From NCBI GenBank assembly GCA_041484135.1, contig JBGPHD010000003.1, forward strand, positions 1 to 47,629: a DNA stretch of 47,629 nt. The letters are read 5' to 3'. The position numbers and the translations under genes are program-made. The notes under the pieces were generated by a model. The model saw only the letters and a program-made list of their open reading frames with translations. It made no database searches and had not been told where the DNA came from. This DNA comes from Gemmatimonadota bacterium (lineage in GTDB: Bacteria > Gemmatimonadota > Gemmatimonadetes > Gemmatimonadales > JACORV01). Below are positions 34,792 to 46,811 of the stretch, piece after piece (positions within the stretch are counted from its first letter, which is position 1; every line of letters starts with the position of its first letter).

Positions 34792-35796
34792 ATGCCCGAC
34801 GAAACGCTGCTGACGCTCCGCCAGCTGGCCGCCCAGCTTGCCCTGCCGGAATCCACGATCCGCTACTACCGGGACGCCTTCCTCGACCACATCCCGTCGG
34901 TCGGCACGGGGCGCCGCCGTCGCTACCCGTCGCAGGCCGTTGCGGTCTTGCGCTCGATCGCGAGGAGCTACGCCTCCGGTCAGTCCCGCGGCGACATCGC
35001 CCGCGCCCTCGAGCAGCACGCGCCGCGTCCCGCGACGGTCGCCACGGCGGCGCAGCACAGCGCACCCACCCGGGCCATGGACGAGGTCTCGAATCTCGAC
35101 CTCCTGGGCGCCATCCTGGACGGCGAGCGCGAGCAGCGCGACGCCCTCTGGCAGATGGCCAAGGAGATCGTGCGCCTGACCGGCGTGCTGGAGGGCCAGG
35201 ACAAGGTGCTGGGCGAGATCGCCGACCGCGCCGGCGTGGTGGTCTCGGGCCGGCCCGCGGTCGCCGCGCCTGCAGCGAGGCCGGCGCTCTCGGCGCCGAA
35301 TCCGATGGCGGAAGCCGCGCCGGCGCCCGCCGCGGTCCCGCTGCCGCCACCAGCTCCTCCCGCACCGCACCCCCAGGCGAGCGCGTTCCAACCTCCGCCG
35401 CCGATGCCTCCGCCGCCGCCCCCGGTCGTCTCGACGGAGCCGGTGCGGATCTGGCCGGAGCCGTCGCCTGTCGCCGAGCCGCCGATGCCGGCGCCGCCCG
35501 CGTTCATCGGCGGCAACCCGTTCTCCGGCGGTCCGCTGCCGGAACTGGAGCCGGAGCCTCCCGCCTCACCGTTCCGGTCGAGCGTCCCGGCAGCGCCGAT
35601 GGTCGAGGGCGGCGAGATGGAGCGCTTGAGGCAGGAGCTGGAATCGGAGCGAGCCCTGGTCGAGCGGCTGCGCGAGGCCAAGCTGCAGCTCGAGCACCGC
35701 ACCGCCGATGCCGAGTCCGCGCTCGAGAACAACCGCGGCCGCCGCTCGTCCGTCATCAAGCGGCTCCTCACCGGCGAGAAGGGCGATGACCGGTAA
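34792..35796 (+). CDS. MerR-type HTH protein with Pro-rich linker and C-terminal coiled coil
   Basis: LTLRQLAAQLALPESTIRYYRD...GRRRRY HTH, poly-Pro linker, heptad-rich C-terminus. Confidence 0.8.
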   Translation: MPDETLLTLRQLAAQLALPESTIRYYRDAFLDHIPSVGTGRRRRYPSQAVAVLRSIARSYASGQSRGDIARALEQHAPRPATVATAAQHSAPTRAMDEVSNLDLLGAILDGEREQRDALWQMAKEIVRLTGVLEGQDKVLGEIADRAGVVVSGRPAVAAPAARPALSAPNPMAEAAPAPAAVPLPPPAPPAPHPQASAFQPPPPMPPPPPPVVSTEPVRIWPEPSPVAEPPMPAPPAFIGGNPFSGGPLPELEPEPPASPFRSSVPAAPMVEGGEMERLRQELESERALVERLREAKLQLEHRTADAESALENNRGRRSSVIKRLLTGEKGDDR

Positions 35797-36109
35797 CCTG
35801 CCGTCGGGGCGGATCCCCACGGTCGGGATGCGCGAGATCGTGGCGGCGCTGCACCGCCGGCGCGCCCGCCGTCGCGAGACGGTGACGGAGATGCGGCACG
35901 CCCTCGAGCAGCTCTCCAGTGGCGTGGAGCGGCATCTCGCGCGGATGGCGCAGCTCAAGGAAGCGGTCGAAGCGCAGGGCGGCGACCTGTCATCGCTCCA
36001 GTACTACGACAACGTCATGGCGAGATTGCGCGGCGAGCTGCGCTCGGCGGAACGGGCGCTGGCGGAAGTGTTCCGCGCCGCGGCGGACGGGCTTCCGGCG
36101 GGGACCTAG
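35786..36109 (+). CDS. Hypothetical alpha-helical protein
   Basis: ORF fills the gap between two genes with GC-rich third positions; start 35786 or 35828. Confidence 0.55.
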   Translation: MTGNLPSGRIPTVGMREIVAALHRRRARRRETVTEMRHALEQLSSGVERHLARMAQLKEAVEAQGGDLSSLQYYDNVMARLRGELRSAERALAEVFRAAADGLPAGT

Positions 36110-37548
36110 GGCTTCGCCGCGAGCGCGATGGCGATGCGGTCGTCGGCGGTGGTCTTGGCGCGCAGCAGCGCGCTGTTGGCCAGGGTGAAGAGGTCCTCCG
36201 TGCGGAGCACCTCGGGATGCGGGAAGGACACGATGCCGGCGGAGAAGTTGGGCCGCCCGTCGGGCGGAACGGTGAAGGTGTGCTTGCCCACGATCCCGCG
36301 CAGTCGCTGGACGAAGTTGCGGGCGCCGCGCGCGTCGGTCTCCGGCAGCACCAGGGCGAACTCGTCGCCGCCGTACCGCGCCACGAAGTCCGGCGAGCGC
36401 AGCTCGCGCTGGAGCAGATGACCGACCTCCACCAGGATCGTGTCGCCGATGGCGTTCCCCAGCCTGGCGTTGATCTCGCGGAACCGGTCCAGGTCGAGCA
36501 GGACGACACAGAAACGCAGCCGGTAGCGCCGCGCCCGCTCGAACTCGTCCTTGATCCGCCGGTCGAGCGCGTCGAGACTGGCGCACCCGGTCATCGAGTC
36601 GAGCGCCCCGGCGCCGCTCTGCCGGCGGAAGATGGCGGCGCGACGGTCCTCGTTCTCCAGCACCTTGGCGGCCGCCTGCGCGATGGTATCGGCCAGCGCC
36701 ACGTCCCGTGCCGTGAGTTCCGCATCCCCCTCCTTGGTCCGGAGGAAGAAGACGCCGGCGGGCGCGCCCTGGACGAACACGGGCAGCGCCACCGCCGACC
36801 GGATGTCCACGTCGATGGATTGCGTCGCCCAGCTCTCGCGGATGGTCGCGAAGAGCGGGTGTTCCTTGATGTTCTCGATGACCACCGGCCGCTCGGTCCG
36901 CAGCGCTTCCCGGAGCTCGGGGTACTTGTCGAGCTCGACGGTGATGTCCCGGGCCGCGGCGTTCTCGTACACCGCCACGACGCGGCCGTGACGCTCCCCC
37001 GGTTGCGTGAGCACGAACGAGCAGTGCGACAGGTTGAGGGCCTGCCCCACCCGCCGCACCAGTGTCTGGAAGATCTCCTCGGCCCGGAGCGAGGCCGAGA
37101 CCTCCTGGAAGATGTCGAAGAGCAGCTCCCGCTGGCGCAGCGAGGCCCGGAGCTCGCGCAGATCCTGCTGGAGCTGGACCAGCCGGGAGAGACGGGCCTG
37201 GAACTCGCTCACCCGGACCGGCACGGCCAGCGCGTCGTCCGCGCCCGCCAGGAGGAGGTCCGCGAGCACCTCGGGGTCCGCGTCGCCGCTGACGGCGATG
37301 AGCGGCACGTCCACGTCGTGGATCGCGCTCTTGCAGGCCCGCACCCGCGCCGCCGCCGACTCGGCCGGACCCTTCACGCAGAGCAGGACCGCGTCGCCCT
37401 GCTTCGCCGTCACGGCCTCCGCGATGTCGGCGTCCGCCGGCAGCTCGCCCACGCCGAAGCCGGCGTGCGTGAGCGACGCGAGGAGGCCGGCGGGTCGCGC
37501 CGACGGTTCACCCGCCACCAGCAGTTGCAATCGGAGGAGCTCGGTCAA
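36106..37548 (-). CDS. Diguanylate cyclase (pseudo-REC, GAF, GGDEF)
   Basis: RSPD I-site, RYGGDEF, DLDRFREIN, GAF region; TTG start at 37548 with GAGG upstream. Confidence 0.9.
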   Translation of the reverse strand: MTELLRLQLLVAGEPSARPAGLLASLTHAGFGVGELPADADIAEAVTAKQGDAVLLCVKGPAESAAARVRACKSAIHDVDVPLIAVSGDADPEVLADLLLAGADDALAVPVRVSEFQARLSRLVQLQQDLRELRASLRQRELLFDIFQEVSASLRAEEIFQTLVRRVGQALNLSHCSFVLTQPGERHGRVVAVYENAAARDITVELDKYPELREALRTERPVVIENIKEHPLFATIRESWATQSIDVDIRSAVALPVFVQGAPAGVFFLRTKEGDAELTARDVALADTIAQAAAKVLENEDRRAAIFRRQSGAGALDSMTGCASLDALDRRIKDEFERARRYRLRFCVVLLDLDRFREINARLGNAIGDTILVEVGHLLQRELRSPDFVARYGGDEFALVLPETDARGARNFVQRLRGIVGKHTFTVPPDGRPNFSAGIVSFPHPEVLRTEDLFTLANSALLRAKTTADDRIAIALAAKP

Positions 37549-37636
37549 TCCTGCCTCACGCCCGGTCCCGCACGGCGCGAACGTAGTCGCGCCGCGCGCG
37601 CGCCGCAAGCAACGCCCACGGGCCGGAGGGCGCGCG

Positions 37637-38287
37637 ATGGACGCTGACCGCACGCGGACCGCCCGCCGGCGCATGGTGTCGCGACAGCTCGCCGCGCGCG
37701 GCATCGCCGACGGGCGCGTCCTGGCGGCGATGGCCACGGTGCCGCGGCACCTCTTCGTGCCTCCGGGCTTCGAGCGCGCGGCCTACGACGACGCGCCCCT
37801 GCCCGTCGGGGAGGCGCAGACGATCTCGCAGCCGTACATCGTCGCCCTGATGACCGCGTCGCTGCGGCCGCGGCGGACCCACCGCATCCTCGAGATCGGC
37901 ACCGGCTCCGGATACCAGACCGCGATCCTCGCCCATCTCGCCGCGCGGGTCTTCACCATCGAGCGGATCCCGGCGCTGGCCGACGGCGCCCGCGCCCGCC
38001 TCACGGCCCTGGGCTACGGCAACGTCGTCTACCGGGTCGGTGACGGCACCCTCGGGTGGCCCGAGGAGGCGCCGTTCGACGGGATCGTGATCACCGCGGC
38101 GGCGCCGCTCCTTCCCGCCCCGCTCCTCGACCAGCTCGCCCCGGGCGCCCGCATCGTGGTGCCGGTGGGCGACCGCGCGCTCCAGGAGCTGCTGGTGGGG
38201 GTGAACGGCCCGGCCGGACTCGAGACCAGCCGCGCGGGGGCCTGCCGGTTCGTGCCCCTGATCGGCGCGCACGCCTTCGACCGGTAG
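37637..38287 (+). CDS. pcm: Protein-L-isoaspartate O-methyltransferase
   Basis: VPRHLFV, QTISQPYIVA, LEIGTGSGYQTA, GWPEEAPFDGI, RFVPL; SD GGAGG. Confidence 0.96.
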   Translation: MDADRTRTARRRMVSRQLAARGIADGRVLAAMATVPRHLFVPPGFERAAYDDAPLPVGEAQTISQPYIVALMTASLRPRRTHRILEIGTGSGYQTAILAHLAARVFTIERIPALADGARARLTALGYGNVVYRVGDGTLGWPEEAPFDGIVITAAAPLLPAPLLDQLAPGARIVVPVGDRALQELLVGVNGPAGLETSRAGACRFVPLIGAHAFDR

Positions 38288-39210
38288 TGGCCGACCTCCC
38301 GAAGGAAGGCCTCCTCGGTGCGCACGTCTCGAGCGAGGGTGGCGTCGCCCGCGCCCCCGCGCGCGGCGGCGCCATCGGCGCCACGGCGATCCAGCTCTTC
38401 ACCAAGACGCCTAACCAATGGCGCGAGCGCGAGGTGGCGCCCGAGGCCGCCCGGGAGTTCGGGGACGCCATGGCCCGCCACGGGATCAGGGTCGCGGTCA
38501 GCCACGACTCGTACCTCATCAACCTCGCCTCTCCCAAAGGCGCGCTCCGCGCCCGCTCGCAGGCCGCCTTCACCGCCGAGCTCTTTCGGGCCGAGCGGCT
38601 GGGGCTCGCGTACGTCGTCTCGCATCCCGGCAACTACCTCGACGACCGTGCCCGCGGCCTGGCGCGCAACGCGCTGGCCTACGCCGAGTGCCTTGCGGCC
38701 GCACCGGGCCGGGTGAAGGTGGCGATCGAGGTCACCGCCGGATCGGGGACGGCCCTCGGCGCGCACTTCGAGGAGCTGGGGGAGCTGGTGGACCGGATGC
38801 CCGCCCGGGCGCGGAAGCGCGTCGCCTTCTGCGCCGACACCTGTCACCTCTTCGCCGCCGGCTACGACCTGGCCGGTGACTTCGACGGCGTCTGGCGTGC
38901 CTTCGACCGGGTGCTGGGATTCGAGCGGCTGGCGGTCATGCACCTCAACGACTCGCGCGGCGGCCTGGGCAGCCGGCTCGACCGGCATCAGCTGATCGGC
39001 GACGGCGAGCTGGGGAAGGAGCCGTTCAGGAGGATCATGACCGATCCGAGGTTCCGGGGCGCGATCAAGCTGATCGAGACCCCCAAGGGGGAGGACGGCG
39101 TCACGAACGACCGGAAGATGCTGCGCCGTCTCAGGGCGTATGCGCGCGGCGGCGCGGGGTCGGCGGGGCTTGGGACGGCCGTTCCCACCTCTCGGGAACC
39201 GGAACTTTGA
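38287..39210 (+). CDS. nfo: Endonuclease IV
   Basis: LGAHVS, QLFTK, HDSYLINL, HPG, DTCHLFAAGYDL, HLNDS, DRH, ETP. Confidence 0.95.
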   Translation: MADLPKEGLLGAHVSSEGGVARAPARGGAIGATAIQLFTKTPNQWREREVAPEAAREFGDAMARHGIRVAVSHDSYLINLASPKGALRARSQAAFTAELFRAERLGLAYVVSHPGNYLDDRARGLARNALAYAECLAAAPGRVKVAIEVTAGSGTALGAHFEELGELVDRMPARARKRVAFCADTCHLFAAGYDLAGDFDGVWRAFDRVLGFERLAVMHLNDSRGGLGSRLDRHQLIGDGELGKEPFRRIMTDPRFRGAIKLIETPKGEDGVTNDRKMLRRLRAYARGGAGSAGLGTAVPTSREPEL

Positions 39211-39235
39211 GACCCACCGGGTGATATGCTATCCT
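39207..39235 (+). promoter_or_regulatory. Sigma70-type promoter predicted to give a leaderless transcript starting at ATG 39241
   Basis: TTGAGA (39207-39212), 17-nt spacer, TATCCT (39230-39235) with extended TG; the ATG is 6 nt after the -10 and has no SD. Confidence 0.55.
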
Positions 39236-39240
39236 TCGAC

Positions 39241-39594
39241 ATGCAGCGGACTTCGGGCCGGCTCAACTGGATACGCCGTTTGGCGTGCGTCTTCGCCGTG
39301 GGGCAAGGCCTGCTCTACGCCGCGCTGCCGTTCGCCGAGGCGCGGATGGAGCACCCGCCCGCCACGGCCGGCTACGAGTCCCGCCACAGTCACGACTGCG
39401 TCGCTCTCCATCAGCCCGACAAGTGCGTCTTCTGCCAGCTCGCCACGATGCGGGCCCGCCGCACCGACGCCGTGCTCGTCCGAGCGGAAGGCCGCACGGT
39501 CCTGGTGGGTGCGCCCAACCGCGGGACCGCCGAGCCGGAGCGCTTCGTCCATCGGTCGACCCTCTCCCGAGCCCCTCCCTCCTCCCTCGCCTGA
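39241..39594 (+). CDS. DUF2946/CruR-like leader protein with His/Cys cluster and C-terminal RAPP motif
   Basis: Signal-like hydrophobic N-terminus, HSHDCVALHQPDKCVFC, ends SRAPPSSLA; precedes a metal-uptake operon. Confidence 0.8.
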   Translation: MQRTSGRLNWIRRLACVFAVGQGLLYAALPFAEARMEHPPATAGYESRHSHDCVALHQPDKCVFCQLATMRARRTDAVLVRAEGRTVLVGAPNRGTAEPERFVHRSTLSRAPPSSLA

Positions 39595-39640
39595 GCTCGC
39601 GGCGGCGCACGGTGCGCCGCCCTACTCCAGCTACGAGGGA
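39583..39640 (+). promoter_or_regulatory. Predicted SD-sequestering RNA structure between the RAPP leader and the OMP gene
   Basis: TCCCTCG (39583-39589) is exactly complementary to CGAGGGA (39634-39640, the SD), enclosing the hairpin GGCGGCGCAC-G-GTGCGCCGCC (39601-39621). Confidence 0.65.
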
Positions 39641-39642
39641 CC

Positions 39643-40896
39643 GTGAAGATCCATCCGATACGACGGCGAGCGGTCACGCTCGTCACGATGATACTGCTCT
39701 GGGGCGGCGCGCTCGCCGCGCAGACCCCGGCCGACTCGGTGGCGCGCCGCCAGCAACGCACGCTCGACTCGCTGGCCGCGGCCCTCCGGGCCCTCCAGGC
39801 CCGGCTCGACAGCCTGGCCCGCGCGCGGGCGGACACGGCGCCGACCGACGACCTGGCCGCGCTGCGCGCCGCGGCCGCCGCCGCCGCGCCCGATTCGGGG
39901 ACGGCCAGCGCACCACGCCAGGCCCGCTTGGGCCAGAACGCACTCAACCCCGAGATCAGTGTCACCGCCATTGTGCACGCGGGCGTAGACCGACCGGGGC
40001 CGCAGGCTGAGCCCTTCAGCGCGCGTGAGTTCGAGTTCTCGTTCCAGTCCGCGCTCGATCCATACTCGTACACCAAGATCTTCCTCTCGGTCACGGACGA
40101 GGGGGCGGAGGTCGAGGAAGGCTATGCCTTCTGGTCCGGACTTCCCGGCCACACCCGGCTCGACGTCGGCCGGCTGCGCCAGCCGCTCGGCGAGCTGAAC
40201 CGGTGGCACCGGCATGCGCTGCCGGAGGGCGAGTTGCCGCTCGTGCATCAGCGCTACCTCGGCGGCACGGAAGGATTGAAAGGCACCGGCGTCTCACTCT
40301 ACGCGCCGCTGCCCATCTCCGGCCGGGCGGGAACCTACGAGTGGTACGGCCAGGTCACGCAGGGCACGAACGATTCCCTGTTCCTGGGCGGCAACCGGCC
40401 GAGCTTTCTGTCCGCGCTGTCGGGGTTCTGGCAGTTCACGCGTTCCACCTTCGCGCAGGTAAGCGTGTCCGGGGCCTACGGGACCAATCCCGACTCCAGC
40501 CTCAAGACGACGATCGGCGCGCTCGCGGTCCGCTTCACGTGGCGCCCGCCGGCCGAGGGCACGCGTCGTGAGTTCACGACGCGGGGGGAGCTGTTCGCGC
40601 TCCACCGCCGGTTCGCCGGCACCGGACCGGCCCGCCTTGGCGGGTACCTCGCCGCCTACTGGCGGCTCGACCGCCGCTGGATCGTCGGGGTGCGCGGCGA
40701 CTACGTTCAGTCCCCGGATCCCGTCGTCGCGGCACACGAGTGGGAGCTCCACTCGACGCTCACGTTCTGGCAGAGCGAATTCGTCTACCTTCGCGCCGAA
40801 TTCACCCACCACCGCGATGTCGCCGGCTTCAACTCCGAACGCCTTGCTCTCCACGCCGTCTGGGCCATGGGGCCCCACAAACACGAGCTCTTCTAA
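39643..40896 (+). CDS. Outer-membrane beta-barrel protein associated with metal ABC uptake
   Basis: Signal peptide, coiled coil, LNPEISV, REFEFSFQSALDPY, EVEEGY, NRWHRH, His-rich end GPHKHELF. Confidence 0.75.
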   Translation: MKIHPIRRRAVTLVTMILLWGGALAAQTPADSVARRQQRTLDSLAAALRALQARLDSLARARADTAPTDDLAALRAAAAAAAPDSGTASAPRQARLGQNALNPEISVTAIVHAGVDRPGPQAEPFSAREFEFSFQSALDPYSYTKIFLSVTDEGAEVEEGYAFWSGLPGHTRLDVGRLRQPLGELNRWHRHALPEGELPLVHQRYLGGTEGLKGTGVSLYAPLPISGRAGTYEWYGQVTQGTNDSLFLGGNRPSFLSALSGFWQFTRSTFAQVSVSGAYGTNPDSSLKTTIGALAVRFTWRPPAEGTRREFTTRGELFALHRRFAGTGPARLGGYLAAYWRLDRRWIVGVRGDYVQSPDPVVAAHEWELHSTLTFWQSEFVYLRAEFTHHRDVAGFNSERLALHAVWAMGPHKHELF

Positions 40897-41940
40897 ATGA
40901 CTACCATGCTGCTCTCCGCGCTCACCGTCGCCGCCGCCCTGACGACGCCACCCAACCCCGTCCGGGTCGTGACCTCACTCACGACCTACGCCGCCATCAC
41001 CCGCGAGATCACGGGTGACCGCGCCACCGTCACCTCCATCGCCGAGGGGGATGAGGATCCGCATTTCGTGCAGCCGCGTCCCAGCTTCGTGCCGGCGCTG
41101 CGCGACGCGGACCTCTTCGTCAGCACCGGGATGGACCTCGAGCTGTGGGTCCCGGCCTTGCTCGACCGTGCCGGGAACGCGAACGTCCGCGAAGGCGGCC
41201 GGGGCTACGTCGCCGCGTACCAGGGCATCCACATCCTCGAGATACCCACTTCTTTGAGCCGCGCGCAGGGCGACATTCACGTGGACGGCAACCCGCACAT
41301 CTGGTCCGACCCGATCAGCGCGATCATCATCGCGCGCAACATCCTGGCGGGTCTCCAGCGGGTCTCGCCCGAGAACAGCGCCTTCTTCGCCGGGCGCGAG
41401 CAGGACTTCGAGCTGCGCATCCTACGCGCCACCTTCGGCGAGGAGCTGGTGCGGATCGTCACGCCGGCCGCGCTCTTCGGCCTCGCCAACAGCGACCGCC
41501 TGTTGCCGTTCCTCCAGAGCACCAACTACCAGGGCCATCCGCTGATCAGCCGCCTGGGTGGGTGGATGCAGCAGGCCCAGGCGTTCCGCGGGCGTGAGAT
41601 GGTCTGCTACCACAAGGAATGGAGCTACTTCTCCAACCGGTACGGCGTGCAGTGCGTCGAGTACATCGAGGCGAAGCCCGGCATCCCGCCGACGCCGCGG
41701 CACGTCCAGGATGTGATCGCGCTGATGCGCGACCGGCACATTCCGGTCCTCTTCGCCGCGAACTACTTCGACCGGAGCCAGATCCAGCAGGTGGCCGAGC
41801 GGACCGGGGCGACGGCGGTCGTCGTGCCGGCCATGACGAATGGCGCGCCCGGGATCACCACGTACTTCGACCTCATGAACACCTGGATCACCCAGCTGGC
41901 GCAGGGGTTCGCCGGCACGGCCGCGACGGGGGCGAGGTGA
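40897..41940 (+). CDS. Metal ABC transporter substrate-binding protein (ZnuA/TroA cluster A-I)
   Basis: EDPHFV, ADLFVSTGMDLE, GNPHIWSDP, YHKEWSYF, EAKPGIPPTPRH. Confidence 0.92.
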   Translation: MTTMLLSALTVAAALTTPPNPVRVVTSLTTYAAITREITGDRATVTSIAEGDEDPHFVQPRPSFVPALRDADLFVSTGMDLELWVPALLDRAGNANVREGGRGYVAAYQGIHILEIPTSLSRAQGDIHVDGNPHIWSDPISAIIIARNILAGLQRVSPENSAFFAGREQDFELRILRATFGEELVRIVTPAALFGLANSDRLLPFLQSTNYQGHPLISRLGGWMQQAQAFRGREMVCYHKEWSYFSNRYGVQCVEYIEAKPGIPPTPRHVQDVIALMRDRHIPVLFAANYFDRSQIQQVAERTGATAVVVPAMTNGAPGITTYFDLMNTWITQLAQGFAGTAATGAR

Positions 41941-42788
41941 GCGCCTTCCTCGAGATCATGCTCGCGCCCTTCGTGGCGTGCATGATCCTGGTCGCGGTCC
42001 ATTCGTACCTGGGGCTCCACGTCATCTCGCGCGAGGTGATCTTCGTGGACCTCTCCCTGGCGCAGATGGCGGCGCTCGGCACGACCATCGCCCTGTTCCT
42101 CGGCGTGGCGCGCACCTCGCCGTGGGCGCAGGCGTTCGCGCTCGCCGCCACGGTGCTCGGCGCGGCGGTCTTCGCCGCCACCCGCACCAAGAACCACGGC
42201 CGCGTGCCGCAGGAGGCCATCATCGGCATCGTGTACGTGGTCGCCTCCGCCGCCGCGATCCTGGTAGCCAACCAGACCCCGAGCGGCGGCGAGGCCATCA
42301 AGGAGATCCTCGAGGGCACCGTCCTCTGGGTCACCTGGGCCACGATCCTCAAGCTGCTGATCGCGTATGTCGTGCTGGGGACGTATTTCTTCATCATGCG
42401 CCGGCGATTCGAGACCATCTCCTTCGAGCCCGTGGTGGCCGAGTCGAAGGGCTGGCACATGCGGTGGTGGGACTTCTGGTTCTACCTCGGCTTCGGCATC
42501 GTGATCACCTTCTCGGTGCCGATCGCCGGCGTGCCGCTGGTGTTCAGCTTCCTGGTCGTGCCGGCCGTCACGGCGTTCCTCTTCACCAGGAAACCGCTCC
42601 TGCTCACCCTGATCGCCTGGGTGACCGGCGCGGTGGCGTCCGCCACCGGCCTCGCGGTCTCCTACTGGAGCGACTGGCCCACCGGGCCGACCATCGTCTG
42701 CACCTTCGGCCTGGTGCTGCTGATCGCCGCGATGGGGAGGCGGCTCTTCAGTGGACCGGCGGAAGCCCCGGAGGCTCCGGCCGCGTGA
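41937..42788 (+). CDS. Metal ABC transporter permease (ZnuB/MntB-like)
   Basis: YLGLHVISREVIFVDLSLAQMAALG, EAIIGIVY, DWPTGPTIV, multiple TM helices; GTGA overlap. Confidence 0.9.
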   Translation: MSAFLEIMLAPFVACMILVAVHSYLGLHVISREVIFVDLSLAQMAALGTTIALFLGVARTSPWAQAFALAATVLGAAVFAATRTKNHGRVPQEAIIGIVYVVASAAAILVANQTPSGGEAIKEILEGTVLWVTWATILKLLIAYVVLGTYFFIMRRRFETISFEPVVAESKGWHMRWWDFWFYLGFGIVITFSVPIAGVPLVFSFLVVPAVTAFLFTRKPLLLTLIAWVTGAVASATGLAVSYWSDWPTGPTIVCTFGLVLLIAAMGRRLFSGPAEAPEAPAA

Positions 42789-43483
42789 GCTGGCCGTCGC
42801 CTTCGCGTCGCGCGGGGATCCTCGCGCGGCTCTCGCTCGCGGCGGGCGCCGCCGGCCTCGCGGCCGCGATCGCCTGCCACGACACCACCGGCACCAGCGC
42901 CTGCTTCGAGCCTAACGCCTCAGGGTACCAGTTCAGCCTCGCCGCCGACACCGGCTTCGTGTTCCGCTGGCCCGGCAGCTACATGCCGGTGCGCGTGTAT
43001 GCCGAGGACGTGGGCGAGCTCCAGGCCAACACCGCGGCGGCCATGCAGCTCTGGGTGAACGCCTTCCGGTGCAGCGAGCTTTCGATGGTGACCGTGACCG
43101 ACTCCACCAAGGCCGACATCATCGTGCGGAACCCGGCGTTCCTGCCCCCTGTCGCCGGCGCCGTGGTCGTCGCGGCCGACTCGGTGGGCGCGTGCCGGGG
43201 CGTCACCACCGACAGCACCTTCACCGGTCTCTCCACGCTGGCGGAGCCGGTCCGCGTGTTCGTCGCCCCGGTCTCCGTCGACTCCGCCGCCGTCGCGGCC
43301 TGCTACCATTTCGTGACGGCGCACGAGCTGGGGCACGCGCTGGGCCTGCTCTCCCACAGCCCCGACACCCTGGACATCATGTATACCCAGCCCCGGCGCC
43401 GGGTCCTCTCCGAGGCCGACAAGTTCACCATCCAGGTCCTCTACCACGCCGCGCCGACCATCGGACCGCCGCCCCGGCAATGA
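42785..43483 (+). CDS. Matrixin (M10-like) zinc metalloprotease lipoprotein
   Basis: Lipobox AIAC, HELGHALGLLSHS, Met-turn DIM, LSEADK. Confidence 0.85.
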   Translation: MSWPSPSRRAGILARLSLAAGAAGLAAAIACHDTTGTSACFEPNASGYQFSLAADTGFVFRWPGSYMPVRVYAEDVGELQANTAAAMQLWVNAFRCSELSMVTVTDSTKADIIVRNPAFLPPVAGAVVVAADSVGACRGVTTDSTFTGLSTLAEPVRVFVAPVSVDSAAVAACYHFVTAHELGHALGLLSHSPDTLDIMYTQPRRRVLSEADKFTIQVLYHAAPTIGPPPRQ

Positions 43484-44133
43484 CCCGCGCCCGCGCGATC
43501 ACCGAGGCGGAGGTCCGCCGCGCCGCGGGCGCCTCACGCACGCTGGCGGTGGCGAAGGGCACGGTGGTGACGCCGGCTGCGAGAGATCTGGCGAAGCAGC
43601 TGGGGGTGGCGCTCGTAAGTCAGAGTGACGTGAGCCGGGAGCCGGGAGCCGGACCGTCGGCGCCCGACGCGGGTCCGGCTCCCGCCTCCCGGCTCCCCGT
43701 CATCGCCCTCGGCGCCGACCACGGCGGCTTCCCGATGAAGGAGCACCTCAAGACCGTCCTCACCGAGCTGGGATACAATGTCCTAGACGTGGGCACGAAC
43801 GGCACCGCGGCGGTCGACTATCCCGACTTCGCCGTTCGGGTCGCGCGCGCGGTGGCGGAGGCGCGGGCGTGGCGGGGGATCATGGTGGACGGCGCCGGGA
43901 TTGGCAGCTCGATGGCCGCGAACAAGGTCGCCGGTATCCGCGCGGCGCTCTGCTACGACCTCACCACCGCGCAGAACGCGCGCGAGCACAACGACGCCAA
44001 CGTGTTGACGTTAGGTGGCACGCTGCTCGGCCCCCGGCTCGCCGCCGAGATCGTGCGCGCCTTCCTCGCCACTCCGTTCGGCGGGGGGCGGCACCAGCGC
44101 CGCGTCGACAAGATCAACGCCCTGGACCGCTGA
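43480..44133 (+). CDS. rpiB: RpiB/LacA/LacB sugar-phosphate isomerase with an extra N-terminal domain
   Basis: IALGADHGG, VDYPDFA, AANKVAGIRAA, AREHNDANVL, GGRHQRRVDKI. Confidence 0.88.
   Translation: MTRARAITEAEVRRAAGASRTLAVAKGTVVTPAARDLAKQLGVALVSQSDVSREPGAGPSAPDAGPAPASRLPVIALGADHGGFPMKEHLKTVLTELGYNVLDVGTNGTAAVDYPDFAVRVARAVAEARAWRGIMVDGAGIGSSMAANKVAGIRAALCYDLTTAQNAREHNDANVLTLGGTLLGPRLAAEIVRAFLATPFGGGRHQRRVDKINALDR
43632..43695. repeat. 24-bp inverted repeat built from GGAGCCG heptamers, in frame in the rpiB linker
   Basis: GAGCCGGGAGCCGGGAGCCGGACC (43632-43655) versus GGTCCGGCTCCCGCCTCCCGGCTC (43672-43695): 23/24 complementary. Confidence 0.85.
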
Positions 44134-44477
44134 TGCGCCTGCGCCGCCTCGCCCTTCGCCTCAAGGCGCTGCTCCTCCTCGCGACGTTCGTGGGCAGCGG
44201 CCTTCCGACGGCGCTCGACGTGGCGCTGCACCACCTGCGCCCCGGGCTGGCGGCACCGCTACCGCACCTCGACCCGCCGGGCGGCTGCCACAGCCACGCC
44301 GAGCACTGCCTGCTGCGCGGGCACGACTCCGCCCTGCGCTTCGCGGTCACGAAGGTCCCGCTCCGCCTCGCTGCCCAGCGCGCCGAGCGCCTCGGCCTCC
44401 TGCCGGGAGACGATCCGCGCCCCCGGCTCCTTCCCTTCCTCCATCACTCGCGAGCCCCTCCGCAGCCGTTGGTCTGA
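44133..44477 (+). CDS. Second His/Cys-rich RAPP leader protein, upstream of the TonB-dependent receptor
   Basis: ATG overlaps the rpiB stop (TGATG); hydrophobic N-terminus; HH...H...CHSHAEHC; ends HHSRAPPQPLV. Confidence 0.78.
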   Translation: MRLRRLALRLKALLLLATFVGSGLPTALDVALHHLRPGLAAPLPHLDPPGGCHSHAEHCLLRGHDSALRFAVTKVPLRLAAQRAERLGLLPGDDPRPRLLPFLHHSRAPPQPLV

Positions 44478-44547
44478 CCGTTCCCTGACATCAGACAACG
44501 AGACCGCGCCCCGCCGCCGTTGCGGCGCGGTGCGACCACCTACGGAG
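44458..44547 (+). promoter_or_regulatory. Predicted SD-sequestering RNA structure upstream of the TBDR
   Basis: CTCCGCAG (44458-44465, includes the PP codons) pairs 7/8 with CTACGGAG (44540-44547, SD). Inner hairpins at 44467-44500 and 44503-44531. Confidence 0.55.
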
Positions 44548-44552
44548 ATGCC

Positions 44553-46811
44553 ATGTCACCGCTCTTCATCGCGGCGGCGCTTGCCATGTCGGCAGGCCTG
44601 CCCACGACCACCTCCCCCGTCGATCCCCCGCCCACGCGCGCCGTCTCCGGGCGCGTCACCGATCCTTCCGGCGCGCCCCTCGCGGACGTCCGCGTCAGCG
44701 TTCTCGAGGCCCGCCGCTCGACCTCCACCGACGACTCCGGGCGCTACCGCGTCGCCGAGCTGTCGCGTGGCACCTTCACGGTGTCGTTCCGCTCCATCGG
44801 CCACCGACCCGAGACGCGGCGGGTCACGCTCACCACCGCGAATGTCACCCTCGACGTCGTGATGCAGGTAACGCTGGTCGAGCTGGACGCCTTGCAGGTC
44901 ACCGCCACGCCCACCGCCACCGACGCGCTCGCCTCACCGCAACCCGTGGCGGCGCGCGGCGGCGAGGAGCTGGCCGCCAGCCAGGCCCCGACCCTCGGTG
45001 AGACCATCCAGGGCATGCCGGGCGTGCGCAACTCGAGCACCGGCGTCGGTATCGGCAAGCCGGTGATCCGCGGGCTCACCTCCAACCGCGTCCTCATCCT
45101 CGACAACGGCCAGCGCCTCGAGACCCAGCAATGGGGCGACGAGCACGCCCCTAATCTCGAGACCGTGGACGCAGACCACATCGAAGTGCTGCGCGGACCG
45201 GCCAGCGTGCTCTACGGCTCCGATGCCCTGGGCGGCGTGGTCAACGTGGTGCGCCCCGAGCTGCCGGACGCCATCGGGCGGCCGGCGTTCGTGCACCTGA
45301 CGGCGGCCGGCGGCTACGGCACCAACAACCGGGAGCCCGACGGCTCCCTGACCGTCAGCGGCGCGAGCGGCCACGTCGGCTTCCGCGGCGGGCTCACCGG
45401 CCGCACCAGCGAGAACGTCCGGACGCCGTCGTACACGCTTTGGAACAGCGGCAATCGCGCCACGGGCGGCAACGGGGCGCTCGGCATCCGCGGCGCATGG
45501 GGCTCGGCGTCGGCCACATACTCGCGCCGTGTCGAGCACATCCAGCTCACCGACCTGGACAGCACGGCGACACCCAACCAGCGCATCGGCACCGACGTCG
45601 GCCGGGTTGAACTCGCCCTCCCCCTCGGCCCCTCCCGGCTGGAGGTCACCGGCGGATGGGAACGCAGCCGCCGACGCGAGTTCGAGGAGGACACGTCCAC
45701 CGCGGTCGTGCTGGGCCTCCTTCAGACGACGTATACCACCGATGTGCACTTCCACCACGCACCGCTCGGCCGGGTGAACGGGACTCTCGGCTTCTCAGGC
45801 GTGCGGACGACCTTCGACAAGTCCGGCGAGGAAACATTGATCCCGAACTCCCGGACAACCAGCGCCGGGGTGTACGCCTTCGAGCAAACGGAAACGGGAC
45901 GCTGGGGACTCTCGGCGGGACTGCGGTACGACTATCGCCGGCTGGATGTGGACGACGACACCGTCATCGCCGTGACAGCGCAGCAACGCACCTATAGCTC
46001 GGCAACGGGCAACGTCGGCCTGCTCTACCGCGTCTCCGAGCCTGTCGCGCTGGTGCTGAACGTGGGCCGCGGCTTCCGGGCGCCTTCCACCTTCGACCTG
46101 TTCTCCAACGGCGTGCACGAGGGTACATCGGCCTTCGAGCGTGGCGACCCGACGCTCCGCAACGAGACCTCGCTCAACACCGACATCGCGCTGCGCGTGC
46201 GCACCGCCGACATGCTGCTGGTGGTCGGGGCGTTCCTCAACGCGATCCAGAACTACATCTACACCGTCCCGACCGGCACCAGCGACTCGGCGTCCGGCTT
46301 CGAGATCTTCGACGTGACGCAGGGGGACGCCCGCCTGACCGGAGGCGAGCTCTCCGTGGAGTACCACCCGGCACGCGCCATTCACGTCAGCGCGAGCGCG
46401 GACTACGTGCGGGGCCAGAACACCACCACGGGCAGTCCGGTCCCCAAGATGCCGCCGCTGCGGGCAACGTACGGGATCCGCTACGAGCCTCGCGGGCGCG
46501 GCGCCATCCGCAGTCCCTTCCTTCAGGTGAGCGGCGAAACGAACGCCCGTCAGACGCGCCTCGATCCCGCAGAGGCCCAGTTCTACGCCGCCGCGTTCGG
46601 CGGCGTCGGCTATCAGTCCGCGGCGTATAGCCTCTTCAATGCAGGCGGCGGCTTCGACGTGGCGGGCGGCGGGCGAACGCTCCACTTCTCGGTGGCGCTG
46701 CATAACGTCTTCAACACCTCCTATGCGGAGTATCTCAGCCGCATCAAGACCAACGCGCGTAACCCCGGCATGGGGCGCACCCTAAACGGGAGGGTTTCAA
46801 TCGACTTCTGA
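44553..46811 (+). CDS. TonB-dependent receptor with N-terminal carboxypeptidase-regulatory-like domain, probably a transition-metal transporter
   Basis: Signal peptide, plug KPVIRG...QQWGDEH...IEVLRGPASVLYGSDALGGVVN, RGFRAPS, NGVHEG, C-terminal Phe; SD GGAG before ATG 44553. Confidence 0.93.
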   Translation: MSPLFIAAALAMSAGLPTTTSPVDPPPTRAVSGRVTDPSGAPLADVRVSVLEARRSTSTDDSGRYRVAELSRGTFTVSFRSIGHRPETRRVTLTTANVTLDVVMQVTLVELDALQVTATPTATDALASPQPVAARGGEELAASQAPTLGETIQGMPGVRNSSTGVGIGKPVIRGLTSNRVLILDNGQRLETQQWGDEHAPNLETVDADHIEVLRGPASVLYGSDALGGVVNVVRPELPDAIGRPAFVHLTAAGGYGTNNREPDGSLTVSGASGHVGFRGGLTGRTSENVRTPSYTLWNSGNRATGGNGALGIRGAWGSASATYSRRVEHIQLTDLDSTATPNQRIGTDVGRVELALPLGPSRLEVTGGWERSRRREFEEDTSTAVVLGLLQTTYTTDVHFHHAPLGRVNGTLGFSGVRTTFDKSGEETLIPNSRTTSAGVYAFEQTETGRWGLSAGLRYDYRRLDVDDDTVIAVTAQQRTYSSATGNVGLLYRVSEPVALVLNVGRGFRAPSTFDLFSNGVHEGTSAFERGDPTLRNETSLNTDIALRVRTADMLLVVGAFLNAIQNYIYTVPTGTSDSASGFEIFDVTQGDARLTGGELSVEYHPARAIHVSASADYVRGQNTTTGSPVPKMPPLRATYGIRYEPRGRGAIRSPFLQVSGETNARQTRLDPAEAQFYAAAFGGVGYQSAAYSLFNAGGGFDVAGGGRTLHFSVALHNVFNTSYAEYLSRIKTNARNPGMGRTLNGRVSIDF

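What the first reader, a model, noticed from the sequence alone, without database searches (positions are those of the whole stretch)
39207..39645. Metal-sensing RAPP arrest-peptide leader with a visible anti-SD switch controlling an OMP/ABC metal-uptake operon
Seen: a probably leaderless 117-aa ORF with an export-signal-like N-terminus, HSHDC..H...CVFC and terminal RAPP (39568-39579). Four nt later, TCCCTCG pairs perfectly with the next gene's SD across a strong hairpin. Established: RAPP-type motifs stall ribosomes (ApdA/ApdP), and DUF2946 leaders with CxxC plus RAPP (Bordetella CruR, Rhodobacter CutF) regulate downstream copper genes. Inference: a stalled ribosome covers the anti-SD and switches uptake on, while metal-dependent folding or pulling releases the stall and switches it off. 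That is SecM/MifM logic applied to a Zn/Mn-type ABC system rather than a Cu receptor.
Basis: partly seen in the sequence, partly recalled or inferred. Interest (0 to 1): 0.85.

Follow-up and report, generated by a model that had tools for sequence, protein, structure and literature searches.

The report
Metal-sensing ribosome-stalling leader before porin/ABC operon
A small exported peptide gene ending in the ribosome-stalling motif RAPP sits in front of a porin and metal ABC-transporter operon, with its last codons paired to the next gene's ribosome-binding site, which makes it a new Gemmatimonadota branch of the known CutF/CruR copper-sensing leader peptides, possibly tuned to zinc.

Summary
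Window 39241-39594 encodes a 117-aa peptide with a signal-like N-terminus, a C-x3-H-x4-C-x2-C motif and RAPP four codons before the stop. Its last codons (TCCCTCG, 39583-39589) pair with the SD (CGAGGGA, 39634-39640) of a porin-like gene. That gene is followed by a ZnuA-type binding protein and an ABC-3 permease.

At this one locus the fold is not significant in a 71% GC genome. The family evidence carries the case. Homologues occur in 170 of 401 genomes of the phylum. All 30 best loci keep R(A/G)PP 2-9 residues before the stop. The CxxC-to-RAPP spacing is 43-45 residues in 41 of 41 leaders. Leader tails pair better with their own SD than with others' (0 of 20,000 permutations).

This is a sub-threshold DUF2946 relative built on the published CutF design, with CruR's spacing. 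A second, unrelated-looking RAPP leader (44133-44477) precedes the TonB receptor.

Metal identity and polarity are unproven. Zinc is favoured. The same leader family also heads CzcCBA-type efflux operons, so polarity cannot be read from the sequence. I rate it a new variant of a known kind, of moderate interest.

The parts
39207..39235 (+). Promoter-like site: -35 TTGAGA (39207-39212), 17-nt spacer, TG-extended -10 TATCCT (39230-39235). It ends 5 nt before ATG 39241, which implies a leaderless or near-leaderless mRNA.
   Evidence: the only hit in 5.8 kb, against 0.2 +/- 0.5 in shuffles. TTGAG-17-TGnTAT(C/G)CT-5 nt-ATG is kept in 4 of 4 same-genus loci (L001-L004) while the spacer varies.
39241..39594 (+). 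Leader 1: 117-aa CutF/CruR-like arrest-peptide ORF, including the stop codon.
   Evidence: Codon-position GC is 0.72/0.56/0.89, like neighbouring genes. It is conserved in 170 of 401 phylum genomes.
39241..39342 (+). Export-signal-like N-terminus (residues 1-34): basic n-region, hydrophobic core, invariant Pro30, then A-E-A before R35.
   Evidence: Sequence. The AF2 model has a helix at 5-37 with block pLDDT 83-98. No signal-peptide predictor was available, so cleavage is inferred.
39376..39435 (+). Putative metal-sensor motif E46-x2-H49-x-H51-x-C53-x3-H57-x4-C62-x2-C65.
   Evidence: H57, C62 and C65 are invariant, and E46 and C53 are kept in 90% or more of 30 sequences. Metal binding is inferred.
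39568..39579 (+). RAPP arrest motif (CGA GCC CCT CCC). The expected stall has CCT 39574-39576 in the P site and CCC 39577-39579 in the A site.
   Evidence: R110, P112 and P113 are nearly invariant. The stall position is by analogy with the CruR toeprint (PMC12992588, passage seen). It was not tested here.
39583..39589 (+). Anti-SD TCCCTCG, inside the last codons of the leader. The stop TGA is at 39592-39594.
   Evidence: P(SD core paired to tail) = 1.00.
39599..39622 (+). GC-rich inner hairpin (GGCGGCGCA-CGG-UGCGCCGCC) enclosed by the anti-SD/SD helix. No U-run follows it.
   Evidence: RNAalifold on 11 short-IGR loci keeps it, with G-C to C-G swaps.
39634..39640 (+). SD region CGAGGGA of the porin-like gene, which starts at GTG 39643.
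39643..40896 (+). 417-aa outer-membrane beta-barrel (porin-like) with a signal peptide and an N-terminal coiled coil. No Pfam or NCBIfam match.
   Evidence: no family. AF2 mean pLDDT is 71.5, with about 16 strands. Foldseek top hits are porins MOMP, OmpM1, OprO and OmpF, at E 1.6e-8 to 1e-5 and TM about 0.4-0.5.
40897..41940 (+). ZnuA-family (cluster A-I) metal substrate-binding protein.
   Evidence: Pfam ZnuA 7.3e-49. Best NCBIfam hit is AztC at 2e-26, far below its cut-off. The alignment to YfeA shows His/His/His where YfeA has His/His/Glu.
41937..42788 (+). ABC-3 family permease. Its GTG overlaps the SBP stop (GTGA). No ATPase gene is in the operon.
   Evidence: G012 has the same gene order without an ATPase.
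42785..43483 (+). Matrixin-like HExxHxxGxxH protein. Co-operonic, role unknown.
   Evidence: Pfam Peptidase_M10 7.2e-7. Proteins with a similar C-terminal sequence, by eye, close the RND efflux operons of relatives.
43480..44133 (+). RpiB-like gene with an N-terminal extension of about 70 aa, overlapping its neighbours (ATGA, TGATG).
44133..44477 (+). Leader 2: 114-aa ORF with a hydrophobic N-terminus, HLDPPGGCHSHAEHC, and HHSRAPPQPLV*. RAPP is at 44451-44462. Anti-SD CUCCG at 44458-44462 lies inside the Pro codons.
   Evidence: Codon-position GC is 0.86/0.51/0.90. Homologues occur in 38 of 401 phylum genomes. P(SD~tail) = 0.98.
44543..46811 (+). SD CGGAG (44543-44547) and a TonB-dependent receptor, with the likely start at ATG 44553.
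   Evidence: Plug, TonB_dep_Rec_b-barrel and CarboxypepD_reg domains. Best NCBIfam hits are the heme-type and ZnuD-type models, all below cut-off.

Best explanation
Leader 1 (39241-39594) is a translated regulatory uORF of the CutF/CruR (DUF2946-superfamily) kind. It is a nascent, probably co-translationally exported peptide whose C-terminal RAPP arrests its own ribosome.

With the two Pro codons in the P and A sites, the ribosome covers roughly the next 12-15 nt. That stretch is exactly the anti-SD (39583-39589) and the stop codon. The SD of the porin gene (39634-39640) is then freed and the porin/SBP/permease operon is translated. When the arrest is short, the ribosome terminates, the helix re-forms and the SD is masked.

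The Cys/His motif lies a fixed 44 residues upstream of RAPP. It should therefore have just left the exit tunnel at the moment of arrest. Metal binding there, or folding or pulling linked to it, sets how long the arrest lasts.

Shown here: the conserved ORF, the motifs, the spacing, the pairing and the gene context.

Inferred: that the ribosome arrests, that a metal modulates the arrest, which metal it is (zinc favoured, about 0.45), and the polarity (about even).
For: 1. It is a real, conserved coding gene. Codon-position GC is typical of coding sequence. The representative library holds 29 small relatives. A1-profile matches occur in 170 of 401 phylum genomes.

2. RAPP is fixed. All 30 best loci carry R(A/G)PP 2-9 residues before the stop: 28 through the filter, plus L044 and L045 by eye. 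Of the 43 distinct leaders, 39 have RAPP and 4 have RGPP.

3. The ruler is fixed. CxxC-to-RAPP spacing is 44 in 34, 43 in 4 and 45 in 3 of 41 leaders, although the intervening sequence is poorly conserved. CruR's family shows 45 +/- 1-2 residues, and that spacing matters functionally (PMC9426467, passages seen).

4. The SD is masked.
- P(SD core paired to leader tail) exceeds 0.5 in 36 of 41 loci and 0.8 in 29 of 41.
- The cognate tail/SD duplex averages -14.6 kcal/mol, against -11.15 +/- 0.53 when partners are permuted among 25 cluster representatives. None of 20,000 permutations reached the observed value. The result is the same without my four start-codon overrides.
- Arms change together between lineages: CCCUCG/CGAGGG, UCCUCUCC/GGAGAGGA, CUCCCGUUCC/GGAACGGGAG.
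- Perfect complements of 7 nt or more over the SD core occur in 11 of 41 family loci, against 11 of 703 own-genome controls.
- RNAalifold recovers both helices, with 7 of 13 pairs showing compensatory changes.

5. There is a link to the known family. DUF2946 scores E 0.025 across nearly the whole model. The A1 profile finds a PF11162-annotated protein at 2.9e-6. hhalign gives 95% probability over the full length.

6. RAPP and RGPP are depleted in this genome's crude proteome, with observed/expected ratios of 0.41 and 0.43. AAPP is at 1.45 and PPAR at 1.70. This fits the published avoidance of these arrest motifs (PMC12992588, abstract seen).

7. An independent second leader family in the same window has the same output design.

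8. There are published precedents. CutF's stem-loop with an anti-SD is opened by stalling. CruR arrests at RAPP in vitro.
Against: - There is no experimental or expression evidence. No RNA run holds the locus.
- The single-locus fold is not significant, with z = -1.29. Stable duplexes are common in this GC-rich genome: 47% of 703 controls reach the same energy.
- Much of the SD pairing is compositional. Shuffling the C/U-rich tail still gives a mean P of 0.52, against 0.83 observed. Five of 41 loci show little or no tail/SD pairing.
- The leader falls below Pfam's DUF2946 threshold (15.8 against 23.7 bits). None of the 30 members reach it.
- The AF2 model of the sensor region is of low confidence, with pLDDT 51-69.
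- The same leader family heads a CusA/CzcA-type efflux operon, so the polarity for an importer is undetermined.
- No ABC ATPase is in the operon.
Confidence: 0.75

Rival explanations
1. The arrest peptide is the same, but its output is transcriptional, as in CruR. The stalled ribosome would block Rho, or prevent a terminator-like outer helix from forming, and masking of the SD would be secondary.
For: CruR works through Rho-dependent termination (PMC9426467, passages seen). In several relatives the 3' arm of the helix is followed by a T-run: L006 TCTTCTTTTTT, L007 TTGTTTTT, L008 GGGTTTTC, L002 CATCTTTT and L025. In those loci the outer helix could act as an intrinsic terminator.
Against: In the window no T-run follows the helix, and the terminator scan finds nothing there. 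The intergenic region is only 48 nt and mostly base-paired, which leaves little room for a rut site. CruR's is 162 nt. The SD core itself is the paired partner in 36 of 41 loci, as in CutF.
Confidence: 0.12
2. The ORF encodes a bona fide small exported metal-binding protein, such as a periplasmic chaperone. The downstream gene would simply be translationally coupled to it. RAPP would be a tolerated slow spot, and the tail/SD pairing a by-product of Pro/Ser/Leu codons.
For: Shuffled tails keep a mean SD-pairing probability of 0.52. Any ribosome reading the last codons opens the helix, whether it stalls or not. The peptide has a signal-like N-terminus and conserved Cys and His residues.
Against: R(A/G)PP is invariant 2-9 residues before the stop in 30 of 30 loci. 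The sensor-to-RAPP spacing is fixed at 43-45 residues across a non-conserved linker. RAPP is depleted elsewhere in the proteome. Tails pair better with their own SD than with others'. CutF and CruR proteins are undetectable in cells and act in cis.
Confidence: 0.08
3. It is a chance ORF and a chance hairpin in GC-rich DNA.
For: The fold z-score is -1.29. The genome holds 74 stop-to-stop ORFs ending near R[AG]PP, mostly out-of-frame artefacts.
Against: Conservation across 170 of 401 genomes. Coding-type GC periodicity. Invariant motifs. Synteny with the same operon in another genus.
Confidence: 0.01

Closest known systems
CutF of Rhodobacter capsulatus (cutFOG; DUF2946 / 'CutF-like' proteins)
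   Same: - A small first gene of a metal operon with a Sec-type N-terminus.
- A Cys motif and a C-terminal proline stalling motif.
- A stem-loop whose anti-SD masks the SD of the next gene and appears to include the leader's last codons: the published stem-loop-retaining construct keeps the last four codons of cutF.
- A stalled ribosome opens the stem-loop.
- A short intergenic region.

Sources: 10.1101/2022.11.11.516240 and 10.1101/2025.02.05.636593, passages and the Discussion section seen.
   Different: - CutF has CxxxC and a PPP motif and depends on EF-P. Here the motifs are C-x3-H-x4-C-x2-C and RAPP/RGPP, which were reported as refractory to EF-P (PMC12992588 abstract).
- CutF's target is a Cu oxidase used for detoxification, and Cu prolongs the stall. 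Here the target is a porin plus a ZnuA-type ABC importer.
- The phylum is Gemmatimonadota and the mRNA is probably leaderless.
- The words 'ABC', 'zinc' and 'Gemmatimonad' do not occur in that paper's main text. Its supplements could not be seen.
CruR (Bp2923) of Bordetella pertussis
   Same: - A CxxC motif, with RAPP 3-4 residues before the C-terminus.
- CxxC-to-RAPP spacing of 45 +/- 2. Here it is 44.
- An export signal.
- It heads a metal-uptake operon. Leader 2 here, and 9 of 41 family-1 leaders, precede TonB receptors.
- Arrest at RAPP has been shown in vitro.

Sources: PMC9426467 and PMC12992588.
   Different: CruR's output is Rho-dependent termination across a 162-nt intergenic region. 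Here the region is 48 nt and contains an SD-masking helix. CruR passes the Pfam DUF2946 threshold, and this leader does not. CruR senses Cu, and here the metal is unknown.
ApdA/ApdP/ApcA RAPP arrest peptides, and SecM/MifM
   Same: The RAPP core stalls with Pro-tRNA in the A site. The stalled ribosome remodels downstream mRNA to expose an SD. This is recalled knowledge plus abstracts listed.
   Different: Those peptides monitor Sec/YidC activity and lie upstream of localisation-machinery genes. Here the downstream genes are metal transporters, and the leader carries a Cys/His sensor.

Membership tests
Pfam DUF2946 (PF11162) | Score above the curated gathering threshold (23.7 bits) | tested here: not met
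   15.8 bits, E 0.025. 9 of 30 family members match at E <= 1 and none is over the threshold. Family search of the own genome: 0 matches at E <= 1.
Pfam DUF2946 (PF11162) | Detectable homology to an annotated member | tested here: met
   The A1 profile hits P0072, which carries a precomputed PF11162 annotation, at E 2.9e-6. It is 1 of 62 hits. hhalign of A1 against P0072 gives 95.2% probability and E 2.5e-8 over 106 columns.
CruR-type uORF (as defined in PMC9426467) | CXXC motif | tested here: met
   C62-V-F-C65. Both Cys are invariant in 30 of 30 sequences.
CruR-type uORF (as defined in PMC9426467) | C-proximal RAPP about 3 residues before the C-terminus | tested here: met
   RAPP plus 4 residues here. 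The tail is 2-4 residues in the 41 leaders analysed, and 9 in L044.
CruR-type uORF (as defined in PMC9426467) | CXXC-to-RAPP spacing of about 45 residues, conserved within 1-2 | tested here: met
   44 here. Across the 41 leaders: 44 in 34, 43 in 4 and 45 in 3.
CruR-type uORF (as defined in PMC9426467) | Copper-relieved arrest coupled to Rho-dependent termination | not testable with these tools
   This needs experiments. The 48-nt structured intergenic region argues against the Rho mode.
CutF-like protein (rule-based definition, 10.1101/2022.11.11.516240) | [quoted passage not shown] | tested here: met
   117 aa, PP at residues 112-113 of 117, and the next gene 48 nt away.
CutF-like protein (rule-based definition, 10.1101/2022.11.11.516240) | N-terminal Sec signal peptide | tested here: inconclusive
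   Basic n-region, hydrophobic core, Pro30 and A-E-A. AF2 helix at 5-37. No signal-peptide predictor was available.
CutF-like protein (rule-based definition, 10.1101/2022.11.11.516240) | Stem-loop that masks the SD of the downstream gene | tested here: met
   In silico only.
RAPP-class arrest peptide (ApdA/ApdP type) | Ribosome arrest at RAPP | not testable with these tools
   Indirect evidence only: motif invariance and depletion of RAPP/RGPP in the proteome.
RAPP-class arrest peptide (ApdA/ApdP type) | Encoded upstream of Sec/YidC machinery genes (monitoring substrate) | tested here: not met
   The downstream genes are a porin-like OMP, a ZnuA-family SBP and an ABC-3 permease.

The most novel reading that the evidence does not exclude
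Gemmatimonadota carry a portable module: a fixed-ruler metal sensor, a RAPP arrest site and an anti-SD. It exists in at least two sensor families. One is C-x3-H-x4-C-x2-C placed 44 residues before RAPP. The other is GGC-x2-H-x2-H-C placed 47-49 residues before RAPP.

On this reading the module senses zinc, or another divalent cation, rather than copper. It is plugged in front of importers (a porin with a ZnuA-type ABC system, and TonB receptors) and exporters (CzcCBA).

That would make these the first zinc-responsive nascent-chain sensors. It would also imply that one cassette yields opposite physiological outputs, with polarity set by something other than the visible sequence design, such as the compartment in which the emerging sensor meets the metal.
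Probability: 0.3. Interest if true: 0.75.

Novelty: new variant of a known kind. Interest (0 to 1): 0.55.

Why it matters
Metal-sensing arrest peptides have been studied experimentally only for copper, in two proteobacteria (CutF and CruR). This locus extends the kind in several ways:

- To another phylum.
- To a subfamily that Pfam does not catch and that databases label 'hypothetical protein'.
- To a new class of regulated genes, a porin plus a ZnuA-type ABC importer.

It also offers natural comparative evidence that the published cases lack:
- Leader tails that pair preferentially with their own SD, across 41 loci.
- A 43-45-residue sensor-to-RAPP ruler, identical in front of import and efflux operons.

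That makes two questions directly testable: how one cassette sets its polarity, and whether zinc can be read by a nascent chain.

Tried and rejected
**Energy statistics at the single locus.** The fold z-score is -1.29 and duplex energies are ordinary for this genome. I rejected them as evidence and used lineage-specific pairing and exact-complement counts instead.

**Unconstrained duplex search of tail against 230 nt downstream.** It mostly found spurious GC-rich partners inside the next gene. I replaced it with SD-window tests.

**The search for related loci with A1.** It failed because no stretch was conserved enough. I used the genome search instead.

**AF2 of the leader.** Only the N-terminal helix is confident. 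The model gives no metal-site geometry, and I did not take it to a fold search.

**Rfam over 38800-44700.** One sub-threshold chance hit inside the porin gene. No riboswitch was found.

**Expression.** No RNA holder is listed, and read laying was not used.

**Fur/Zur-like operator.** GATAnnnTATC overlaps the -10 element but occurs only 3 times in the genome. That is no evidence of a regulon.

**Literature.**
- 'DUF2946' gave 16 papers.
- RAPP + arrest peptide + ribosome stalling gave 29 papers.
- Arrest peptide / zinc / ZnuA / uORF gave 5 irrelevant papers.
- CutF / CruR from 2023 on is.
- I found no paper that links such leaders to ZnuA-type ABC systems or to Gemmatimonadota. Supplementary tables were closed and may list them: CruR Table S1, CutF File S1 and Fig. 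S6, and the EMBO J source data.

**Polarity.** I looked for differences between leaders in front of porin, TonB-receptor and OEP genes in motif, spacing and tail. None was found.

**Rows dropped.**
- Of 38 representatives, 9 long repetitive proteins were left out of A1.
- Of 43 leaders, L024 and L039 lack a downstream ORF in the DNA held, which leaves 41.
- L012, L016 and L017 (weak hits) showed no motif and were not analysed. L019 carries a variant motif, CAFH in place of CxxC, and was also left out.
- L044 (9-aa tail) and L045 (CxxF, RGPP) were seen by eye only.
- Start codons of L003, L014, L041 and L050 were overridden by hand. One search repeats the test without the overrides.
- Family 2: a leader was found in 24 of 25 loci. 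18 passed a stricter sensor pattern. 13 with credible starts were folded; L067, L068, L082, L088 and L089 were dropped.
- Identity of the downstream genes was checked by Pfam only for G028 (OEP/HlyD/ACR_tran), L018 and L047. The rest were classed by BLASTP to the window's proteins or by N-terminal likeness.

**Unpublished genome.** G205 is one of the 170 positives. No other claim rests on it.

Full report
**What is there**

Window 39241-39594 (+) is a 117-aa ORF. It begins with a basic stretch followed by a hydrophobic one, ending in A-E-A. It carries E46, H49, H51, C53-x3-H57-x4-C62-x2-C65, and it ends in STLS-RAPP-SSLA-stop. RAPP lies at 39568-39579.

TCCCTCG (39583-39589, codons 115-117) is the exact complement of CGAGGGA (39634-39640), which lies 2 nt before GTG 39643. 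The MFE structure forms this helix around a GC hairpin at 39601-39621.

The only sigma-70-like site in 5.8 kb is TTGAGA-17-(TG)TATCCT at 39207-39235, and it ends 5 nt before ATG 39241. The same layout is kept in 4 of 4 same-genus genomes while the spacer drifts. Other genera show a TACATT-like hexamer 6-11 nt before the start. A leaderless or near-leaderless transcript is therefore plausible.

**Is it more than chance?**

At this single locus it is not. The fold z-score is -1.29. In a crude own-genome control of 703 consecutive ORF pairs, 47% reach the same tail/SD duplex energy. Only the exact 7-nt complement over the SD core is unusual, at 11 of 703, or 1.6%. The case rests on comparison with relatives.

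**The family**

A full HMMER scan of 1.84 billion representatives found 38 hits. Of these, 29 are small proteins of 91-126 aa. In their alignment with the leader (A1), P30, H57, C62 and C65 are invariant. Q22, E46, C53, R110, P112 and P113 are nearly so.

An A1 profile search matched 170 of 401 genomes sampled from the phylum, often 2-3 times per genome. This count includes the unpublished G205. Source names and the Atlas place the relatives in Gemmatimonadota, always as 'hypothetical protein'.

All 30 best loci have R(A/G)PP 2-9 residues before the stop. Among 43 distinct leaders, 39 have RAPP and 4 have RGPP.

The CxxC-to-RAPP distance is 44 residues in 34, 43 in 4 and 45 in 3 of 41 leaders, across a linker that is otherwise poorly conserved. 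That is the hallmark reported for CruR's family: 45 residues, conserved within one or two, and functionally important (PMC9426467, passages seen). About 44 residues places the sensor just outside the exit tunnel when the ribosome reaches RAPP. This last point is inference from general knowledge of tunnel length.

**The RNA switch**

In 41 loci with a downstream ORF, the ensemble probability that the SD core is paired to the leader's tail exceeds 0.5 in 36 and 0.8 in 29.

Tails pair better with their own SD window than with those of other lineages. The cognate mean is -14.6 kcal/mol, against -11.15 +/- 0.53 when partners are permuted among 25 cluster representatives, and 0 of 20,000 permutations reached it. 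The result is unchanged without my manual start corrections, and with all 41 loci.

The arms change together between lineages: CCCUCG/CGAGGG near the window, UCCUCUCC/GGAGAGGA, CUCCCGUUCC/GGAACGGGAG and others. The pairing often includes the stop codon. RNAalifold on 11 short-IGR loci recovers both the outer helix and the inner hairpin, with 7 of 13 pairs showing compensatory changes.

Against this, shuffling the C/U-rich tail still leaves a mean pairing probability of 0.52. Part of the effect is the composition of Pro, Ser and Leu codons. Five loci show little pairing.

**Geometry**

CruR's toeprint puts the third and fourth RAPP codons in the P and A sites (PMC12992588, passage seen). By analogy, the stalled ribosome here has 39574-39576 in the P site. 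A ribosome shields roughly 12-15 nt downstream of the P site (general knowledge). That stretch contains the anti-SD at 39583-39589. The SD lies 60 nt away and is not occluded.

The mechanism is therefore physically coherent, and it is the one published for CutF. There, a stem-loop whose anti-SD masks the cutO SD is melted by the stalled ribosome.

**Relation to DUF2946**

The leader scores 15.8 bits against a 23.7-bit threshold (E 0.025), over nearly the whole model. Nine of 30 relatives match at E <= 1, and none passes the threshold. The A1 profile nevertheless reaches one PF11162-annotated protein at 2.9e-6, and hhalign gives 95% probability over the full length.

It is thus a distant branch of the superfamily that a Pfam-based survey, such as CruR's, would miss.

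**What is regulated**

The next gene (39643-40896) has no Pfam or NCBIfam match. It models as a beta-barrel behind a signal peptide and a coiled coil, with mean pLDDT 71.5. Foldseek's best hits are porins: MOMP, OmpM1, OprO and OmpF, at E down to 1.6e-8 and TM about 0.4-0.5.

The genes that follow are:
- a ZnuA-family binding protein;
- an ABC-3 permease;
- a matrixin-like HExxH protein;
- an RpiB-like gene.

All overlap or abut one another. No ATPase gene is present, here or in the syntenic G012 operon.

Aligned to YfeA, the binding protein has His, His, His where YfeA has His, His, Glu. By recalled knowledge, that is the zinc-type pattern of ZnuA, AztC and TroA. Its best NCBIfam hit is AztC, far below cut-off.

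**Context across the family**

Of the 41 loci:
- 28 precede the same porin family;
- 9 precede TonB receptors;
- 4 precede an OEP-like gene.

In G028 the OEP-like gene opens an OEP / CusB-type adaptor / CusA-CzcA-family RND operon. TIGR00914 scores 903 bits against a cut-off of 701, and the adaptor ranks CzcB/NccB far above CusB. Sensor motif, spacing, tail and anti-SD design do not differ between the three classes.

Two things follow. First, a divalent cation such as zinc fits importer, receptor and Czc-type exporter better than copper does. One class must respond the other way, or one class is regulated counter-intuitively. CutF and CruR already show opposite polarities within one superfamily.

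**A second leader**

ORF 44133-44477 overlaps the RpiB stop by one base. It encodes a 114-aa peptide with a hydrophobic N-terminus, HLDPPGGCHSHAEHC, and HHS-RAPP-QPLV-stop. Its codon-position GC is typical of coding sequence.

Its Pro codons (CUCCG, 44458-44462) pair with the SD CGGAG (44543-44547) of the TonB receptor. P = 0.98, and the region's fold z-score is -2.36.

It is not detectably homologous to leader 1. BLASTP and hhalign align only the C-terminus. An Atlas lead points to Gemmatimonadota clusters, in one of which 13% of members carry DUF2946.

Homologues occur in 38 of 401 phylum genomes. In 18 analysed leaders the sensor-to-RAPP spacing is 48 in 14, 47 in 3 and 49 in 1. In 11 of 13 loci with credible starts the SD is paired to the tail, and CCUCCGG/CCGGAG alternates with CCUCCAG/CUGGAG.

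My first searches with this leader used a frame shifted by one base and are void. See Tried and rejected.

**Indirect support for arrest in this organism**

In a crude proteome of 1672 ORFs, RAPP and RGPP occur at 0.41 and 0.43 of expectation. AAPP, PPAR and RPAP are at 1.45-1.70. This fits the reported purging of these motifs from bacterial proteomes (PMC12992588, abstract seen).

**Verdict**

This is a real, conserved regulatory leader of the CutF/CruR kind, with a comparatively well-supported SD-masking helix. It differs from the studied cases in several ways:
- phylum;
- a sequence family below Pfam's threshold;
- the sensor motif;
- a probable leaderless mRNA;
- the regulated genes.

Arrest, metal identity and polarity remain untested. 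I rate it a new variant of a known kind. My confidence in the mechanism class is about 0.75, in zinc about 0.45, and polarity is about even.

Noticed in passing
window 44133-44477 (RAPP 44451-44462; SD 44543-47; receptor from 44553): A second RAPP leader, with a different sensor (GGC-x2-H-x2-H-C), sits directly before the TonB-dependent receptor. Its anti-SD lies inside the Pro codons. Its family is found in 38 of 401 phylum genomes, with a 47-49-residue ruler.
   Followed up: yes
L062 (G028:C107:56000-66000), L063, L064: Family-1 leaders also head OEP / adaptor / CusA-CzcA-type RND efflux operons. In G028 that operon sits just upstream of a malic-enzyme gene, as the metal cluster does in the window (malic enzyme from 46983).
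   Followed up: partly
window 39599-39622 and the same place in L002-L009, L025, L029, L035: The hairpin right after the leader's stop codon keeps both its structure and a GGCGCAC-like sequence across genera. Its role is unexplained. It could hold the two arms together, act as a pause site, or bind a factor.
   Followed up: partly
L006, L007, L008, L002, L025 (downstream of the 3' arm): In some relatives a T-run follows the SD arm, so the outer helix could double as an intrinsic terminator. That would be an attenuation variant. No such T-run occurs in the window.
   Followed up: no
window 42785-43483; L061 3580-4269; L062 6737-7366; L063 1968-2639; L064 5997-6722: A small matrixin-like HExxHxxGxxH protein with a conserved C-terminal ...TIQ.LYH... 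motif closes both the porin/ABC and the RND efflux operons. Its function is unknown.
   Followed up: no
window 40897-42788; L061: The ZnuA-type binding protein and ABC-3 permease have no ATPase gene beside them, here or in G012.
   Followed up: partly
window 43480-44133: An RpiB-like gene with an N-terminal extension of about 70 aa is embedded in the metal cluster and tightly overlapped with its neighbours. The order is the same in G012.
   Followed up: no
whole genome G000: RAPP and RGPP are under-represented in a crude proteome (ratios 0.41 and 0.43), while related tetrapeptides are not.
   Followed up: yes
window 39223-39233: An AT-rich palindrome, GATATGCTATC, overlaps the -10 element. Only 3 GATAnnnTATC sites exist in the genome, so there is no sign of a regulon.
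   Followed up: partly
window 34792-35796 and 36106-37737(-): A MerR-family regulator and a GAF-GGDEF protein lie a few kb upstream of the leader. No link to the operon was examined.
   Followed up: no
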